A DNA stretch of 64,000 nt from Salmonella phage vB_SenS-3: the sequence record OR896822.1. The stretch is one strand, 5' to 3'. This document shows positions 29,601 through 62,138 of this stretch, one piece after another (within the stretch, counting starts at the first letter, position 1; every line of letters begins with the position of its first letter). Under the pieces are notes generated by a model that saw only the letters and a list, made by a program, of their open reading frames with translations, was not told where the DNA came from and ran no database searches. The position numbers and the translations under genes were made by a program.

Positions 29601-29627
29601 TTTTGTCTCTCATCAATTTATGTATAT

Positions 29628-29657
29628 ATTATACATTAAATCGGGAGGATTTGACAA
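29628..29657 (-). promoter_or_regulatory. T5 early-type sigma70 promoter (proximal of tandem pair)
   Basis: Minus strand TTGTCA-18-TATAAT followed by ATATACATAAATTGATGAGAG element. Confidence 0.6.
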
Positions 29658-29728
29658 GTACAATTTTTATTTTTCTGCCTCGGACTTTCTTATCAATCCG
29701 AAACTTTCTCTCTCAAATTTATGTATAT

Positions 29729-29757
29729 ATTATACAATAATTATGAGTAGTTGCCAA
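29729..29757 (-). promoter_or_regulatory. T5 early-type sigma70 promoter (distal of tandem pair)
   Basis: Minus strand TTGGCA-17-TATAAT followed by ATATACATAAATTTGAGAGAG; shares an exact 21-nt block with the proximal promoter. Confidence 0.6.
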
Positions 29758-40109: not shown

Positions 40110-40138
40110 AATTGATCCTCTCATCAATTTATATAAAT

Positions 40139-40167
40139 ATTATATATGAAAACTGAGTCGAAAGCAA
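40139..40167 (-). promoter_or_regulatory. T5 early-type promoter
   Basis: Minus strand TTGCTT-17-TATAAT followed by ATTTATATAAATTGATGAGAGG. Confidence 0.6.
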
Positions 40168-42347: not shown

Positions 42348-42378
42348 ATTTAAACTCCTCTCTCAAATTTATGAATCT

Positions 42379-42407
42379 ATTATACAGAAAAATTTTCCTG
42401 AAAGCAA
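42379..42407 (-). promoter_or_regulatory. T5 PN25-like strong early promoter
   Basis: Minus strand TTGCTTTCAGGAAAATTTTTCTGTATAATAGATTCATAAATTTGAGAG, matching the PN25 promoter as I recall it. Confidence 0.7.
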
Positions 42408-42874: not shown

Positions 42875-43103
42875 CTTCTTTAATTAATTCTCCTAATTCC
42901 TTATAAACACGTTCTAACTCAAAAGGGATACGTAAGGATATTCGTACCTTACGTTGTTTTAACAGCCATATAGATACGTTCGGAATACCAGCCAATCTGG
43001 GAGGGACCACTCGGCATAGTTTCTCCGCAGTATCGTAAACAGAAGTTTTCCGTTCTTTTACTGAAAACTTCCTTGTTTCCCACTTTTTATTCTTCGCTGT
43101 CAT
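42852..43103 (-). CDS. small hypothetical protein
   Basis: ATG at 43103 (MTAKNKKWETRKF...) overlapping the 3' end of the upstream gene; weak RBS. Confidence 0.2.
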   Translation of the reverse strand: MTAKNKKWETRKFSVKERKTSVYDTAEKLCRVVPPRLAGIPNVSIWLLKQRKVRISLRIPFELERVYKELGELIKEDDNSRRG

Positions 43104-45876
43104 TTCTAGCCCCCAATTCAGCAAGAGCTTCCTCATGCATCTGACGTTCTTCATCTGTCATAAACTTAACTGGAATCGGCATACATTCGATCTTACAGTA
43201 AGTTCTGTACCAGTCCACAATCTTTTCCGTATCCAGATCTTTACCGATACCCATCATGCCAAGATACATACGAGCATATTTTGGGTTAGCGCTCTGACCT
43301 GTCTTAAGGAAGAAATCCTTCTTCTTATTCTTAAGAGCTTCGATAAACGGTTTGATTGTTACGTTTGAACACTTTTTAATATCTTCCCAGAACATGTCGT
43401 GCATCTTATGGAAGAATGCAGCTCTATCGTTTGGTTTATCCTTGATATACTGTTCAACGTGTTCCACTGTTACATCTTTAATAGAATCCAGATGATAATA
43501 GCGAACCAGAAGTAACTTGGCTTCATAGGCATCTGCATGACGTGGTGCACAATATTCAGGAGTTGAGTGCAAAATAGCTTTGATTCGCTCTTCTGTATAC
43601 TCTTTGCCTGCACCTTCGATAGTCCCCCAGCTTTCACTGAAGATATCAATAGTTGCACCTTGATCGAGAAGATAATAACGCAAAGTACTGGTATAGTTTC
43701 TAGATTCCAGCTCACGACGGCGTGCGTACAGTTGCTGAGCTAACTCAATCCAACCCTCGTCAATATTATATTGCTCGGAACCAGCAGAGAATCCACTCGT
43801 AGATTTATCAATAAAATAATAAATGTTCTGAGCACCACGGTCGCGCCTGATTGCTTGAAAACGCATGTTTGGCGCTTGGTTTGAGGTTCTAGTGATTACG
43901 AATACGTTATCAAAATAGTTAAAGTCAACACCACTCGTTACAGATGGACTACATAACAAACAATCAATCTGTTGATCAATTAGCTCATTAGTTGTATAAT
44001 CCAGAATACGTCGGATATCTACATCAGACGTAGAGTTTGAGTGAATTTCTTTAACTAACGCACCAGTATTACGACGTAATGCCATTCCCTTCTCATTCAG
44101 TTCATCCGGGCCACAGTCAGATACTAGGATTGATTTCTCCCCCATCTCTAAAGATGTTTGAAGTGCAACCCAAATACTGGATTCATCAGGGAACTCATAT
44201 GCATGAGCTTTTGCCAGCATTTTACGGTGATGATTATAGAACGCGACCGGTTTATCAAAATCAATCAAAGAACCATAGGCTTCAATCGTTTCTGCACTGA
44301 TATCACCATCAGATAAGATAACCGTTTTTGCAGTAATAAGAATATCGCGAAGAACCTGAATACATTCACGACGGTTTTTAACAACCGGGGCGAATAACAG
44401 ATCATTCATTACTGCGTCACATTCATCAATAAAGATCGTATCAATCTGACCCACAAAGCTCTTGAACTTATGGATAGAGTGAATAGTTGAAGACATACGA
44501 TCAATAGCACCACGTTTGAAGTTCAGCATATCAACTGACTTATCATACTGACCAGCACCGAATTTCTTCGCGTTTGAAGATACAAGTGCCCTAGTATTTG
44601 TGATTGCAATAAAGTTTCCTGGAAGAACACCTGCATCTAGCCACTTAGTTACTGCTGTGGTTTTACCTGTACCAAGACTTGCCTTAACAAATGTTAAATG
44701 TCCTTTTGGGGGTACAATGTTAATCTTCAAGTATGGAACTTCTGGCGGTGAATCTGTGTCCAGACGCTTTAGTGGTACACCTTTTAAGTTGGGTGGAATC
44801 TCACGTTTGGAGTTATTCACAAAGGCTTTTAGAGCCTGCTTACGACCGTTATTAAAGTAATCTTGAATATTACGACTATTATCTTTAGTTGCAATATATT
44901 CAGATAAAGCTGGTTTAATCTCACGTTCTAACCACGTAAAGTCAACACCATCTTCTAACGCTCTGTGATAAAGTTTTGGGATAATACGCAGGTACACCCC
45001 ATCCTCAGCTTCTTCTAGTTCGCTGATGGTTTCTTCCACTTTATCAGATGCAGCTTTCTTGCCTTTAATTTGGTCAAGTAAGGAGTAGAATTCTTCTTTA
45101 AACTCACCTCTAGTTGTTTCAAAGTCAACTAGGTTATTGGGTAGATTCACTTTCGAACCCTTAACATACACAAGACGTGGTTTATTCTCCGCTTTAAACG
45201 GATCGACTATACCATCATCAAACAAGGGATCTGCGAAATAGTGAAGCTGAACAGAAGAATAATAAGCTAAGTCAGCAATATCAAAGCCATACTTTTGCTT
45301 ACTACTGTCATTGATAGATGTAAATAAGAACTTTAACTGTCCCTGCGTTACCTTGACATTAGATTCTAGCATTAAGTGCATTCGGATACCTGGTTTTAAT
45401 CCAGCCGAAGACGATGCATGGGCAATAAACCCTGCATCAAGAGGAAACATATCCTCACTAATACTATTCAACATCTTAATAATATGACGTGCCATGCCAA
45501 CAAGATTAAACTTGTCATAGCCACCAGTATCTACAATACCATCCACGTCCATAGCGATAATATGACTAGGATTGGATACGTTAAAGTTTCCTCTGGTACG
45601 ACGCACATTATCTTTTGGAGCTAGACATTTACCACGAATAGCTACAATATGCGGGTCTTTGGTAAGACGACGCATGATAGATAACATTTCAGCAAGGTTT
45701 TGCGGGTCAAGTTCTTCAAGTACATCAAATTTGAAGGGCATGGAAGCTGGTTTACCTTCTGGATGCTCTTTAGAGAATCGCTTTGCAAAGGTATAATCTT
45801 CCACTTTGATCTCTTTCCAGATGCCAGTGGCTTTATCTCTGGAAAATCCTGCGTGACCTTGTAGGATTGAGAACAC
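43087..45876 (-). CDS. putative primase-polymerase (AEP-like) / P-loop helicase fusion protein
   Basis: Start moved to GTG at 45876 with AGGAG RBS 7 nt upstream (ORF track ATG at 45999 has no RBS); N-terminal D-x-D motif HIIAMDVDG resembles AEP primase motif I; central Walker A SLGTGKTT and DExD-like IFIDECD. Confidence 0.6.
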   Translation of the reverse strand: MFSILQGHAGFSRDKATGIWKEIKVEDYTFAKRFSKEHPEGKPASMPFKFDVLEELDPQNLAEMLSIMRRLTKDPHIVAIRGKCLAPKDNVRRTRGNFNVSNPSHIIAMDVDGIVDTGGYDKFNLVGMARHIIKMLNSISEDMFPLDAGFIAHASSSAGLKPGIRMHLMLESNVKVTQGQLKFLFTSINDSSKQKYGFDIADLAYYSSVQLHYFADPLFDDGIVDPFKAENKPRLVYVKGSKVNLPNNLVDFETTRGEFKEEFYSLLDQIKGKKAASDKVEETISELEEAEDGVYLRIIPKLYHRALEDGVDFTWLEREIKPALSEYIATKDNSRNIQDYFNNGRKQALKAFVNNSKREIPPNLKGVPLKRLDTDSPPEVPYLKINIVPPKGHLTFVKASLGTGKTTAVTKWLDAGVLPGNFIAITNTRALVSSNAKKFGAGQYDKSVDMLNFKRGAIDRMSSTIHSIHKFKSFVGQIDTIFIDECDAVMNDLLFAPVVKNRRECIQVLRDILITAKTVILSDGDISAETIEAYGSLIDFDKPVAFYNHHRKMLAKAHAYEFPDESSIWVALQTSLEMGEKSILVSDCGPDELNEKGMALRRNTGALVKEIHSNSTSDVDIRRILDYTTNELIDQQIDCLLCSPSVTSGVDFNYFDNVFVITRTSNQAPNMRFQAIRRDRGAQNIYYFIDKSTSGFSAGSEQYNIDEGWIELAQQLYARRRELESRNYTSTLRYYLLDQGATIDIFSESWGTIEGAGKEYTEERIKAILHSTPEYCAPRHADAYEAKLLLVRYYHLDSIKDVTVEHVEQYIKDKPNDRAAFFHKMHDMFWEDIKKCSNVTIKPFIEALKNKKKDFFLKTGQSANPKYARMYLGMMGIGKDLDTEKIVDWYRTYCKIECMPIPVKFMTDEERQMHEEALAELGARNDSEE

Positions 45877-46372
45877 AACAATACTCCTATGTTGGTTATT
45901 CGAATATCTTTCTTTAGGACTATTCAAAAGAATAGAACAACTATTACTACCATTTACACAAACATTAATCATCATCAAGCAGTATGAATAAGTTATCATA
46001 CCTCAGTGCTGCGCTCTCTTAACTCTTATCCAGATCAGAACCTAGGTCATTGGCCGCTAAGCCGATTCTGATTGCCCTCACTATCCTATTGGTAGGTGGC
46101 TACTGGACGTGTCACCATTCGCTGCTCTTTTCGTTCGCACCCCCATATAAAGCTCTGCCTATATAACGAGCTAAATATGCACGGTTTGGATTTACCTTTC
46201 CGAATTCAGGGTACGCAGATCACTTAATTGATAATTAACTAATGCAGTATAAACACTAGTAATAGTTAAAACAACCCTTAATGGGGCAGCCTAACTGTTC
46301 CGTATTGCGGACTGTAAACAAGAAAAATTAGCAAAATCAATTTTTACTAATGTCTCTCAATTCAATATAAAT

Positions 46373-46401
46373 ATTATATCAAGATTTTGAGCATCCTGCA
46401 A
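46373..46401 (-). promoter_or_regulatory. T5 early-type promoter about 480 nt upstream of primase-helicase start
   Basis: Minus strand TTGCAG-17-TATAAT followed by ATTTATATTGAATTGAGAGACA. Confidence 0.55.
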
Positions 46402-46440
46402 GTAAAATTTTTCCGAAGGTGCTATCAGTGTCCTTGAGCA

Positions 46441-46468
46441 CAGAGAAAACCGAGTCAAAATGACTCGG
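46441..46468 (-). terminator. rho-independent terminator (minus strand)
   Basis: Minus strand hairpin CCGAGTC-atttt-GACTCGG followed by TTTTCTCTG. Confidence 0.6.
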
Positions 46469-46492
46469 TAATCAGGATTGAGCTAATGAAAA

Positions 46493-46816
46493 TCAATCAT
46501 CATTTAGGCCTGGGACATAGATTCCAATGCGATTTAATTGACCTTTAGCTTCTTCGAGAATATCTTCGGTGTACTCCCAAATATCATCTTCTACTTGCAA
46601 AAGATAAGGGGATTCACCAGTTTCGGGCTCACGTGTAATGGCTAAGCCACGTGGATGGAATATAGAGAAGTTGAGGGCAACAATCAAGCCCATGCTGGAC
46701 AATTCATTCCAGTCAGCTTCCCAGCCATCATCTTCATCTTCGTCCACAAATACACCTACACTAGGGTCTGTTACAGAAGTAAACGGAAATGTTACACTAA
46801 CCTTGTCAACCCCCAA
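46493..46816 (-). CDS. hypothetical protein, paralog of 46898..47326; N-terminus interrupted by in-frame TAG (possible pseudogene)
   Basis: C-terminal 70 aa align with the neighbour (DWNELSSMGLIVALN...GIYVPGL vs DWKELDEMGLVFALN...GYMIPGL); an in-frame ATG at 46888 with TAAGGAGG RBS gives MEQVFWRQIDPSLV, then TAG at 46844-46846. Confidence 0.4.
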   Translation of the reverse strand: MGVDKVSVTFPFTSVTDPSVGVFVDEDEDDGWEADWNELSSMGLIVALNFSIFHPRGLAITREPETGESPYLLQVEDDIWEYTEDILEEAKGQLNRIGIYVPGLNDD

Positions 46817-46897
46817 CCAACGTGCAAGGAGCCCCTCAGCACGCTATACCAAACTAGGATCTATCTGACGCCAAAATACTTGTTCCATTCTGCCTCC

Positions 46898-47326
46898 TTA
46901 AGCAGTTAAACCTGGGATCATATACCCGAAACGACGAAGTTTCTGAATCCCCTCATTTACTTCCTCGGGCGAATATGACCAGCCCTCACGTTCATTTACC
47001 TGGAAAGCAGGAGCTTCACCAGTGCGATAGTTTACAATAAGACGGTGATTTGCAGGCATAAACAGCTTATGGTTCAAGGCAAAAACCAGACCCATTTCAT
47101 CGAGTTCTTTCCAGTCTACAATTTCTTCTACTCCCCCACCTAAATCCACGCTAACTCCAATACACGGAGCTTCCTCTAGTGGGCCTTTAAAAGACAGGAA
47201 GATATCGTTATTCTCACACCAAATCTTAAGCAGATTGATGGTTTCATTGTACATACCATTAGGGAGAGAACGCCAGAAGTTGAGGAGCATAGGATTTACC
47301 TCTTTCATGAAAATATTATTGAACAT
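46898..47326 (-). CDS. hypothetical protein (paralog pair member A)
   Basis: 142-aa ORF; start 2 nt after upstream stop; homologous to the downstream ORF. Confidence 0.5.
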   Translation of the reverse strand: MFNNIFMKEVNPMLLNFWRSLPNGMYNETINLLKIWCENNDIFLSFKGPLEEAPCIGVSVDLGGGVEEIVDWKELDEMGLVFALNHKLFMPANHRLIVNYRTGEAPAFQVNEREGWSYSPEEVNEGIQKLRRFGYMIPGLTA

Positions 47327-49656: not shown

Positions 49657-49684
49657 AGCTTTCTCCTCTCAAATTTATAAATCA

Positions 49685-49713
49685 ATTATACATAAGTTTT
49701 AGCTCGAAAGCAA
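49685..49713 (-). promoter_or_regulatory. T5 early-type promoter
   Basis: Minus strand TTGCTT-17-TATAAT followed by TGATTTATAAATTTGAGAGGAG. Confidence 0.6.
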
Positions 49714-62069: not shown

Positions 62070-62098
62070 TTGCTTTCAGCTCCAAAATTCTGTATAAT
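62070..62098 (+). promoter_or_regulatory. T5 PN25-like early promoter
   Basis: TTGCTTTCAGCTCCAAAATTCTGTATAAT followed by ATATTCATAAATTTGAGAGAAC. Confidence 0.65.
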
Positions 62099-62138
62099 AT
62101 ATTCATAAATTTGAGAGAACAACAAAAGGAAAATAATT

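What the first reader, a model, noticed from the sequence alone, without database searches (positions are those of the whole stretch)
45877..46372. About 480-nt GC-richer untranslated leader between a T5-type promoter and the primase-helicase start codon
The minus-strand promoter at 46373-46401 is followed by about 480 nt without any ORF of 60 aa or more and without convincing RBS-start pairs, before the AGGAG-GTG start of the large primase-helicase gene at 45876. The region looks richer in G+C than typical intergenic DNA here (for example ggccgctaagccgattctgattgccc, cgttcgcacccccat) and contains several short complementary segments. Possibilities: a structured regulatory leader or riboregulator, a stable ncRNA, a replication origin-related element, or the remnant of a deleted gene. 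No tRNA T-loop motif was found by eye.
Basis: seen in the sequence. Interest (0 to 1): 0.5.

Follow-up and report, generated by a model that had tools for sequence, protein, structure and literature searches.

The report
Structured RNA leader before T5 helicase gene
The roughly 490 untranslated bases between a strong T5-type promoter and the replication helicase gene D2 encode a large, elaborately folded RNA that T5-like phages conserve through compensatory mutations; no RNA family or paper searched describes it, and its job (probably controlling D2 expression) is still unknown.

Summary
A T5-type promoter (46401-46373) is followed by about 490 nt with no conserved ORF before the AGGAG-GTG start of D2 (45876), the UL9-like "origin-binding" helicase of T5. 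The window is 100% identical here to Salmonella phage S.Typ Adana and about 90% to T5.

The leader is a structured RNA on the transcribed (minus) strand. It has:
- a 5'-terminal hairpin
- a conserved box
- a 35-38 bp AU-rich long-range helix enclosing about 250 nt
- a multi-helix central domain with an invariant C-U-[UAGC]-G-G hairpin tip
- a 3' hairpin, then the RBS

This architecture is kept in at least nine sequence types of Markadamsvirinae, although the central sequences are only about 50% identical. The evidence:
- 29 of 154 pairs in the window's own type show double compensatory changes (shuffles give 4.1).
- 14 of 24 pairs do so in one subdomain of four other sequence types.
- Cognate helix arms pair far better than non-cognate ones (-34.8 vs -16.7 kcal/mol).
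- The sense strand pairs better than the antisense strand.

There is no Rfam match, tRNA, protein homology, iterons or internal terminator, and the papers searched do not describe it.

The most likely role is a cis-acting leader processed by RNase III and bound by a protein. That role is inferred, not shown. An excised stable RNA or an origin-linked transcript remains possible.

The parts
46449..46469 (-). Intrinsic terminator of the upstream operon (ACCGAGTCA-TTT-TGACTCGGT followed by a T-run). It makes the leader promoter the only evident promoter for D2.
   Evidence: T5 annotation
46373..46412 (-). T5-type sigma-70 promoter: A/T-rich upstream stretch, TTGCAG (46401-46396), 17-nt spacer, TATAAT (46378-46373). 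The start site is inferred at about 46366.
   Evidence: the start site is inferred from spacing, not mapped
46320..46358 (-). HP1, a 5'-terminal hairpin of 16 bp (GAGAGA-C-AUUAGUAAAA / UUUUGCUAAU-U-UUUCUU). It is kept with different sequences in the My1, L037, Sugarland, L046, PR1 and L038 types.
46271..46315 (-). Hairpin 2 carrying the most conserved primary-sequence box, UACGGAACAGUUAGGCUGCCCCAU (box core 46303-46285). The box occurs once in the window.
46228..46268 (-). 5' arm of the long-range AU-rich helix (pairs with 45938-45978)
   Evidence: (I1)
45938..45978 (-). 3' arm of the long-range helix. It forms 35-38 bp with about 8 G.U pairs and only small internal loops, and is the proposed RNase III target.
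46005..46224 (-). Central domain (GC 0.477). It is closed by the helix AGUGAUCUGCGU/GCGCAGCACU (46224-46213 with 46014-46005). It contains subdomain I (46212-46139), middle helices (46138-46074, and 46108-46103 with 46033-46028) and subdomain II.
46034..46072 (-). Subdomain II hairpin: lower stem AUCAGAAUC/GGUUCUGAU, a 9-nt 3' internal loop, upper stem GGCU/GGCC, and the invariant octamer CUUAGCGG (46061-46054) at the tip. It is the proposed protein-recognition site.
45981..46002 (-). Hairpin GGUAUGA-UAACUUAU-UCAUACU, just inside the 3' arm of the long-range helix. B, My1 and L037 types have a hairpin with a GUUGCCA loop at the equivalent place.
45920..45935 (-). 3' hairpin CUAUUC-UUUU-GAAUAG, directly after the long-range helix. 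No U-run follows it, so it is not a terminator.
45872..45893 (-). Weak 7-bp hairpin covering part of the Shine-Dalgarno sequence (AGGAG 45888-45884) and the GTG start (45876-45874)
   Evidence: only one-sided changes were seen, so it is unproven
43087..45876 (-). D2 gene (929 aa), the 'replication origin binding protein' / bipolar helicase and the gene served by the leader
   Evidence: PMC3632103

Best explanation
The promoter at 46401-46373 makes an mRNA whose first ~490 nt fold into a conserved multi-domain RNA before the D2 coding sequence.

Shown: the fold exists on the transcribed strand and is under selection. It consists of a 5' hairpin, a conserved box, a 35-38 bp long-range duplex, a ~250-nt central domain with an invariant CUUAGCGG hairpin tip, and a 3' hairpin.

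Inferred: the leader acts in cis on D2 expression.
- The long, nearly uninterrupted AU-rich duplex is the kind of substrate host RNase III cuts. Cleavage would detach the hairpin-protected 5' end and the central domain from the D2 message. The new message would begin near the 45935-45920 hairpin, which would change its stability and translation.
- The invariant hairpin loop, which has no conserved RNA partner within the leader, is most simply a binding site for a protein. A replication protein such as D2 itself would give feedback control of the initiator helicase, which sits behind a very strong early promoter.
For: Structure and selection:
- In the window's own type (14 sequences, MAFFT plus RNAalifold), 154 pairs are 98% paired. 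29 have changes on both sides, against 4.1 +/- 1.8 in shuffles (0/500) and at most 6 when partners are slid.
- The window and T5 differ by at least 7 compensatory double substitutions.
- The B type gives the same architecture independently.
- Subdomain I in four other types has 14 of 24 pairs compensatory, 0/500 shuffles.
- The subdomain II hairpin, across 13 sequences representing 10 sequence types, is 98.5% paired with 10 of 13 pairs changed on both sides (this alignment was made by hand).

Long-range helix:
- It is present in 11 representatives, at 24-46 bp. In 9 of them it encloses 239-270 nt; the Sugarland type (180) and PR1 (205) differ.
- Cognate arm windows pair at -25 to -42 kcal/mol (mean -34.8). 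Non-cognate windows average -16.7 (best -23.3). The cognate pair is the best in each row and column of the 7x7 matrix.

Strand:
- The sense duplex mean is -34.8 and the antisense mean is -23.2.
- The whole leader folds at -140.6 against -104.3 kcal/mol for the opposite strand.

Cis role:
- The only evident promoter for D2 lies upstream of the leader, just after the terminator of the upstream operon at 46469-46449, and the scan found no other terminator-like site before D2.
- The leader always precedes D2.
- When an HNH gene replaces the upstream DNA, a new promoter sits at the same distance from HP1.

RNase III: cleavage of dsRNA of about two turns or more is established enzymology. The helix length meets that criterion.
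Against: - No RNA ends, cleavage or binding have been measured, so every functional step is inferred.
- In the PR1 and L038 types, 170-280 extra nt lie between the folded domain and the D2 start. Exact spacing to the RBS therefore does not matter, which weakens any direct RBS-masking model.
- The RBS hairpin shows only one-sided changes.
- The central domain is far larger than any known phage translational operator, and it diverges quickly between lineages (~50% identity between A and B types). That would also fit a trans-acting or specificity function.
- The conserved box at 46303-46285 shows no covariation and could act at the DNA level.
Confidence: 0.5

Rival explanations
1. The central domain is the functional product. 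RNase III excises a stable structured RNA of ~250-330 nt with paired ends, which then acts in trans, for example as a cofactor or scaffold for the replication machinery or as a decoy against a host defence. D2 is merely co-transcribed.
For: - The domain is closed by a long helix, like the processing stems that flank rRNAs, and its size is constant at 239-270 nt in 9 of the 11 representatives.
- Its distance to the D2 start varies.
- Its sequence turns over fast while the architecture is retained.
- Loop motifs are invariant and have no partner inside the leader.
- Aeromonas phage TS3 has two such helix-closed regions in tandem in a 1.6-kb gap.
Against: - The leader has no terminator of its own and always lies directly upstream of D2.
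- No second copy or target motif occurs elsewhere in the 64-kb window.
- There are no data on RNA accumulation.
Confidence: 0.25
2. The region is, or overlaps, a transcription-activated replication origin. The strong promoter drives a structured transcript that opens or primes DNA next to the initiator gene, as at ColE1 RNA II, T4 oriF/oriG or the T7 primary origin. The conserved box would be a DNA site for the initiator.
For: - It lies immediately upstream of the UL9-like 'origin-binding' helicase gene.
- In T5 it sits at ~59.0-59.5 kb of 121.75 kb, the genome centre.
- It has a strong promoter plus AT-rich stretches (GC 0.21-0.27) and a box conserved in sequence without covariation.
- Other Demerecviridae (Vibrio and Aeromonas phages) also have 0.6-1.6 kb gaps upstream of the homologous gene, one with a 64-nt direct repeat.
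Against: - The window region has no iterons or direct repeats and no GC-skew switch.
- The AT-rich arms co-evolve to stay complementary, with G.U pairs on the sense strand only. That is RNA-level selection.
- D2 relatives are annotated with a primase domain, so an RNA primer may not be needed.
- T5 origins are undefined. One paper describes the older report as multiple origins, and its own data suggest dominant unidirectional replication from one genome end (PMC10055335).
Confidence: 0.12
3. The central domain is a riboswitch-like sensor of a metabolite or ion that tunes D2 expression.
For: It is a multi-helix junction with highly conserved unpaired nucleotides, located in a 5' leader.
Against: - No Rfam riboswitch matches.
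- No expression platform is present: there is no internal terminator, and no alternative pairing is conserved (the AACAGUUA/UAACUGUU option is broken in the window and absent in the My1 type).
- Spacing to the RBS varies.
- The putative 'aptamer' sequence differs strongly between A and B types.
Confidence: 0.06
4. Non-functional spacer or remnant of a decayed gene.
For: Some records annotate small ORFs inside it.
Against: - Compensatory evolution.
- Flanks more conserved than the neighbouring coding DNA.
- No protein homology.
- ORFs not conserved.
Confidence: 0.02

Closest known systems
RNase III processing helices formed by sequences flanking a structured RNA or lying in a leader (E. coli 16S/23S rRNA precursor stems; T7 early-mRNA R sites; lambda N leader; rnc and pnp leaders). 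Recalled from established knowledge.
   Same: A long duplex made from distant segments of one transcript encloses a folded domain. It lies in a phage or host transcript read by host RNA polymerase. Its length, 35-38 bp, is well above the roughly two helical turns that RNase III needs.
   Different: Cleavage has not been shown here. The enclosed RNA is neither rRNA nor tRNA. T7 sites are short local hairpins, not a 290-nt-span helix.
Autogenous translational operators of phage replication genes (T4 gene 32 pseudoknot, T4/RB69 gene 43 hairpin operator). Recalled from established knowledge.
   Same: An RNA element in the 5' leader of a replication gene, with a hairpin whose loop sequence is invariant, suitable for recognition by the encoded protein.
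   Different: Those operators are about 30-40 nt and overlap the RBS. This leader is ~490 nt, and its invariant hairpin lies ~170 nt or more from the start codon at a variable distance.
Phage P4 leader and CI RNA upstream of the alpha primase-helicase operon; ColE1 RNA II. Recalled from established knowledge.
   Same: A structured untranslated transcript of several hundred nt lies upstream of, or is coupled to, replication initiation functions. In those systems it is processed into an active RNA.
   Different: No sequence or Rfam relationship exists. I found no repeated complementary target boxes for the invariant loop and no evidence of an RNA-DNA hybrid. T5 is strictly virulent.
Large 'ornate' phage-associated ncRNAs (ROOL, GOLLD) in Rfam
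   Same: Large, complex-fold RNAs carried by phages, with function unknown or only recently approached.
   Different: No match to any of 4227 Rfam models in the window or in 12 related loci. This RNA is smaller and is fused to an mRNA.

Membership tests
Any Rfam 15 family (riboswitches, ribozymes, leaders, ROOL/GOLLD, RNase P, tmRNA, 6S and others) | Covariance-model match at or near the family's gathering score | tested here: not met
   In window 45500-46900 the best hits have E = 3.8 and 9.3, far below gathering scores. Twelve related loci gave nothing in the leader.
tRNA / tmRNA | Cloverleaf or tmRNA detected by ARAGORN | tested here: not met
   0 genes in the whole window
Protein-coding gene or pseudogene | A conserved ORF, or residual similarity to a protein family | tested here: not met
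   There is no ORF of 60 aa or more. The ten longest of the 18 six-frame peptides of 20 aa or more were scanned and have no Pfam or PHROG match at E <= 0.1. The in-frame extension is not conserved.
Structured RNA under purifying selection | Base pairs maintained by compensatory substitutions, above shuffled and slid controls | tested here: met
   and the cognate versus non-cognate arm test
RNase III substrate | About 20 bp or more of nearly continuous dsRNA | tested here: met
   35-38 bp with only 1-2-nt internal loops in the window; 24-46 bp in the other types
RNase III substrate | Staggered cleavage in vivo or in vitro that depends on rnc | not testable with these tools
   Needs end mapping in wild-type versus rnc hosts
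Transcription-attenuating riboswitch or leader | Intrinsic terminator or RBS-sequestering helix in competition with an anti-terminator or aptamer helix | tested here: not met
   No terminator lies inside the leader. The candidate alternative pairing is not conserved. Spacing to the RBS varies.
Iteron-type replication origin | Multiple direct repeats (initiator sites) next to an AT-rich unwinding element | tested here: not met
   The only direct repeats in 45800-46520 are chance-level two-copy matches. AT-rich stretches exist, but they are the co-evolving RNA helix arms.
Transcription-primed (R-loop) origin such as ColE1, T4 oriF or the T7 primary origin | Origin activity and a persistent RNA-DNA hybrid downstream of a promoter | not testable with these tools
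   Only the promoter and the position next to the initiator gene are seen. There is no GC-skew switch.
T5-type early promoter | A/T-rich upstream block, TTGC-type -35, 17-nt spacer, TATAAT, and UUGAGAG about 10 nt into the transcript | tested here: met
   Seven sites of TATAAT-N(4-16)-TGAGAG occur in the window against 0.3 expected. T5 and S114 records annotate a promoter here.

The most novel reading that the evidence does not exclude
T5-like phages make a previously unrecognised class of large structured RNA. The 250-330-nt helix-closed domain would be released from the D2 leader and work in trans with the UL9-like initiator helicase. It could mark or prime the still-unmapped T5 replication origin, or set replicon specificity between co-infecting relatives. 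Its lineage-specific sequence would co-evolve with D2: the fixed differences between A- and B-leader phages all lie within residues 36-419, with a cluster at 362-419.
Probability: 0.15. Interest if true: 0.85.

Novelty: new variant of a known kind. Interest (0 to 1): 0.62.

Why it matters
T5 is a classical model phage, and its promoters are standard tools. Yet how its replication starts, and how the initiator helicase D2 is controlled, remain open questions.

A ~0.5-kb RNA with this much compensatory evolution sits directly in front of D2 in hundreds of sequenced T5-like phages. It is a concrete, testable handle on that question.

It also corrects annotation. Many records start D2 41 codons too early, or place spurious small ORFs inside the RNA.

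If the central domain proves to be an excised stable RNA, or to be linked to origin function, it would be a new kind of phage RNA. If it is only an RNase III/operator leader, it is still an unusually large and well-supported new RNA family that is absent from Rfam.

Tried and rejected
- **Known RNA families:** Rfam scans of the window region and of 12 related loci found nothing. ARAGORN found no tRNA.
- **Coding potential:** the ten longest six-frame peptides scanned against PHROGs and Pfam gave nothing. The ATG at 45999 as the true start is rejected, because the extension is not conserved and distant types have ATG or TTG at the GTG position.
- **Origin signals:** direct repeats or iterons were only chance-level, and GC skew shows no switch at the locus.
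- **Partner for the CUUAGCGG loop:** GCUAA occurs in some types but not in the L046 or Sugarland types, so there is no conserved pseudoknot.
- **Other CUUAGCGG copies in the window:** three exist, all inside coding DNA without the hairpin context, so they are chance. Model R2 finds only the leader copy.
- **HSV UL9 box core GTTCGCAC** (recalled from memory): present once at 46133-46140 on the plus strand, but at chance level in the window and absent from B types.
- **Covariance model of subdomain I from B-like types:** it does not detect the window's A type, the Sugarland, PR1 or L038 types, or Vibrio and Aeromonas phages. The central domain is therefore not uniformly alignable.
- **Methods that failed:** RNAduplex over whole leader halves and a single-sequence shuffle test of the long helix were uninformative, and were replaced by the cognate versus non-cognate test. 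mafft-qinsi was not usable.
- **Second 'promoters':** those near D2 in L037 and T5 are by-products of AU-rich helix sequence and are not conserved. The one in L038 (TTGACA-18-TATAAT) may be real.
- **Literature:** searches on T5 origin, transcriptome, RNase III and structured RNA found no description of this leader.
- **Co-segregation of D2 residues with leader type:** cannot be separated from simple linkage.

Full report
**What the window is**

The 721 bases around the finding are 100% identical to Salmonella phage S.Typ Adana. They match 537 phage records, mostly Salmonella, Escherichia and Klebsiella T5-like phages of the Markadamsvirinae; 275 of them cover at least 80% of the query. The downstream gene (43087-45876, minus strand, 929 aa) is the homologue of T5.108. 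This is the 'replication origin binding protein', D2, which was characterised as a bipolar helicase with similarity to herpesvirus UL9 (PMC3632103).

**Check of the observation**

T5 and S114 records annotate a promoter there. The simple scanner missed it only because its -35 hexamer has 3 of 6 matches to TTGACA.

A terminator of the upstream operon lies at 46469-46449. No conserved ORF lies between the promoter and the GTG at 45876.

The ATG at 45999, which some records use as the start (970 aa), only opens an extension. That extension is 0-66 codons long in other types and is not conserved. The AGGAG-N7-start arrangement and the N-terminus MFS/TIL are conserved, with ATG or TTG at the same position in distant relatives.

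The window holds seven promoters of the form TATAAT-N10-12-TTGAGAG, against 0.3 expected. Of the other six, five reach a start codon within a few tens of nt and one is followed by a second promoter. A ~490-nt leader is therefore exceptional in this genome.

GC content is 0.379 for the leader as a whole, 0.477 for the central 220 nt, and 0.21-0.27 for the two AT-rich segments that flank it.

**Conservation pattern**

I collected 31 IMG/VR loci, 4 more with a protein profile, 10 metagenome loci and several annotated records. The promoter-to-start distance is 479-530 nt in most of them. It is ~600 nt where a 97-nt insertion is present, and 620-772 nt in the PR1 and L038 types.

In the alignment of the loci closest to the window:
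- The first ~100 nt and the last ~70 nt of the leader are nearly invariant.
- The central ~260 nt occur in two forms of equal length that are only ~50% identical. The A form is found in the window and in T5; the B form is found in L017-L027.
- The two forms share islands such as GGCTTAGCGGCC.
- More distant phages (My1, L037, L046, the Sugarland type, phiR201, PR1/PSTCR5, L038) have yet other central sequences but keep the octamer CUUAGCGG.

**The fold**

The transcribed strand folds to -140.6 kcal/mol (z = -3.5). The opposite strand reaches only -104.3 (z = -1.9).

The RNAalifold consensus for the window's type was computed on 14 sequences from an unbiased MAFFT alignment and mapped to window coordinates:
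- HP1: 46358-46342 with 46336-46320.
- Hairpin 2, carrying the conserved box: 46315-46271.
- Long-range helix: 46268-46228 with 45978-45938.
- Closing helix of the core: 46224-46213 with 46014-46005.
- Subdomain I: 46212-46139.
- Middle helices.
- Subdomain II: 46072-46034, with CUUAGCGG at 46061-46054.
- A hairpin at 46002-45981.
- A 3' hairpin at 45935-45920.
- A weak hairpin over the Shine-Dalgarno sequence and the start codon.

The B type alone gives the same layout.

**Evidence that the fold is selected**

1. *The window's own type.* 154 pairs are 98% paired. 29 pairs changed on both sides, against 4.1 +/- 1.8 in 500 shuffles (0 reached 29) and at most 6 when partners are slid by 1-3 columns. 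The window and T5 are about 90% identical here, yet they differ by at least seven double compensatory changes. One example is AUCAGAAUC/GGUUCUGAU against AAUAGAAUC/GGUUCUAUU.
2. *Subdomain I of the B, L046, L037 and My1 types.* On an unbiased alignment, 14 of 24 pairs are compensatory, 0/500 shuffles. The inner stems read GCAACC/GGUUGU, GCUAUC/GAUAGC, ACAAUC/GAUUGU and CGGCA/UGCCG, under a conserved UAG...AGGU loop.
3. *The subdomain II hairpin.* In 13 sequences representing 10 sequence types, it is 98.5% paired, 10 of 13 pairs changed on both sides, 0/500 shuffles. This alignment was made by hand, with N standing for gaps, so it leans toward the structure.
4. *The long-range helix.* MFE folds of 11 representatives contain a 24-46 bp helix at the equivalent place. 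It encloses 239-270 nt in nine of them; the Sugarland type (180) and PR1 (205) differ. I took windows defined by sequence anchors rather than by folding. Cognate 5' and 3' windows pair at -25 to -42 kcal/mol (mean -34.8), and non-cognate combinations average -16.7 (sd 4.4, best -23.3). The cognate pair is the best in every row and column of the 7x7 matrix.
5. *Strand.* The same arms taken as the opposite strand pair at a mean of -23.2. The many G.U pairs would be A.C mismatches on that strand. Selection therefore acts on the sense RNA, or formally on sense single-stranded DNA, and not on a symmetric DNA site.

**What it is not**

- It has no Rfam family and no tRNA.
- It has no protein remnant.
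- It has no iterons and no skew switch.
- It has no terminator inside the leader.
- It has no conserved alternative pairing and no conserved intramolecular partner for the invariant loop.
- Model R2 of the subdomain II hairpin finds a single site in the 64-kb window (E = 3e-7). It also finds the sites in L038, in Aeromonas phage TS3 and, weakly (E = 0.36), in PR1, and finds nothing in four Vibrio phage loci.
- Model R1 of subdomain I does not transfer from B-like types to the window's type. The central domain is architecturally conserved but not homogeneous in sequence.

**How it most likely works** (inferred)

D2 has no other evident promoter, so every D2 message must begin with this RNA. A 35-38 bp, AU-rich, almost uninterrupted duplex is a textbook RNase III substrate. 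Cleavage would remove the hairpin-capped 5' end and the central domain, and would leave a D2 message starting near the 45935-45920 hairpin.

The invariant CUUAGCGG tip sits on a covarying stem with an asymmetric internal loop, and it looks like a protein recognition site. Feedback by D2 or by another replication protein is the simplest reading. I give this cis-regulatory reading 0.5.

Points against it:
- The variable distance to the RBS in the PR1 and L038 types.
- The sheer size of the domain.
- Its fast, lineage-specific divergence.

These points fit a trans-acting excised RNA (0.25).

An origin-linked transcript (0.12) is suggested by three things:
- The neighbouring initiator gene.
- The central genome position in T5, ~59.0-59.5 of 121.75 kb.
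- Long gaps upstream of the homologous gene throughout the Demerecviridae.

It has no direct support, and T5 origins are unsettled in the literature (PMC10055335).

A riboswitch (0.06) and junk DNA (0.02) are unlikely.

**Comparison with known systems**

It works most like RNase III-processed leaders and flanking stems, or like autogenous operators of phage replication genes. By context it also resembles the P4 alpha-operon leader/CI RNA and ColE1 RNA II. It is not a member of any curated RNA family tested. I found no paper describing it. That library lacks most subscription journals, so an older description cannot be excluded.

**Verdict**

This is a real, strongly supported and apparently undescribed structured RNA in front of the T5 initiator helicase gene. 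Its function is unknown. I score interest at 0.62.

Noticed in passing
L016 ~1960-2056, L018, L033, L003 ~1664-1760 (insertion point corresponds to window ~46320): A ~97-nt insertion lies directly after HP1, flanked by the direct repeat TTTTTCTT. It occurs in A-type, B-type and phiR201 leaders, and in records H5, H12 and H15. It contains its own hairpin (AUUUACGG...CCGUAAAU). It may be a small mobile or recombining module.
   Followed up: partly
L013 1461-1967 (also L015, L024, L044; L028 has both promoters): An HNH_3 homing-endonuclease gene is inserted between the upstream gene and the leader. It brings a different promoter (TTGCAAGGGAG...TATAAT) placed at the same distance from HP1.
   Followed up: partly
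window 46493-46816 and 46898-47326 (minus strand): The two genes upstream of the leader are paralogues carrying DUF7415.
   Followed up: no
window 45877-45999; 46050-46227 (plus strand): Public records are inconsistent. Several start D2 at the ATG at 45999 (970 aa). GEC_vB_N7 annotates two small reverse-strand ORFs inside the structured RNA. Both are probably mis-annotations.
   Followed up: yes
window 29607-29633, 29710-29734, 40118-40144, 42360-42384, 49666-49690 (minus strand); 62093-62117 (plus strand): Six further T5-type promoters share TATAAT-N10-12-TTGAGAG. The one at 42360-42384 appears identical to the classical PN25 promoter, as far as I recall it. The GAGAG of HP1 is therefore part of a generic early-promoter and initial-transcript motif.
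   Followed up: partly
L054 219-1808 (Aeromonas phage vB_AdhS_TS3): A 1590-nt unannotated gap lies upstream of the obp gene. It has two long-range inverted repeats (300-314/1020-1034 and 1051-1065/1659-1673) and CUUAGCGG at 698 and 942. This may be a tandem, enlarged version of the same RNA.
   Followed up: partly
L053 1428-1491 and 1541-1604 (Vibrio phage PG07); L051 831-1931 (JSF10): Vibrio Demerecviridae also have gaps of 0.6-1.1 kb upstream of the D2 homologue. PG07 carries a 64-nt direct repeat in two copies (95% identical). No CUUAGCGG hairpin was found.
   Followed up: partly
window 46133-46140 (plus strand): GTTCGCAC, the core of the herpesvirus UL9 binding box as I recall it, occurs once inside the leader next to the UL9-like gene. 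Its frequency in the window is at chance level, and it is not conserved in B-type leaders.
   Followed up: yes
D2 protein residues 36-419, cluster at 362-419 (window ~44620-44790): All 29 fixed amino-acid differences between phages with A-type and B-type leaders lie in the N-terminal 420 residues, with a dense cluster at 362-419. This could be linkage or co-evolution.
   Followed up: partly
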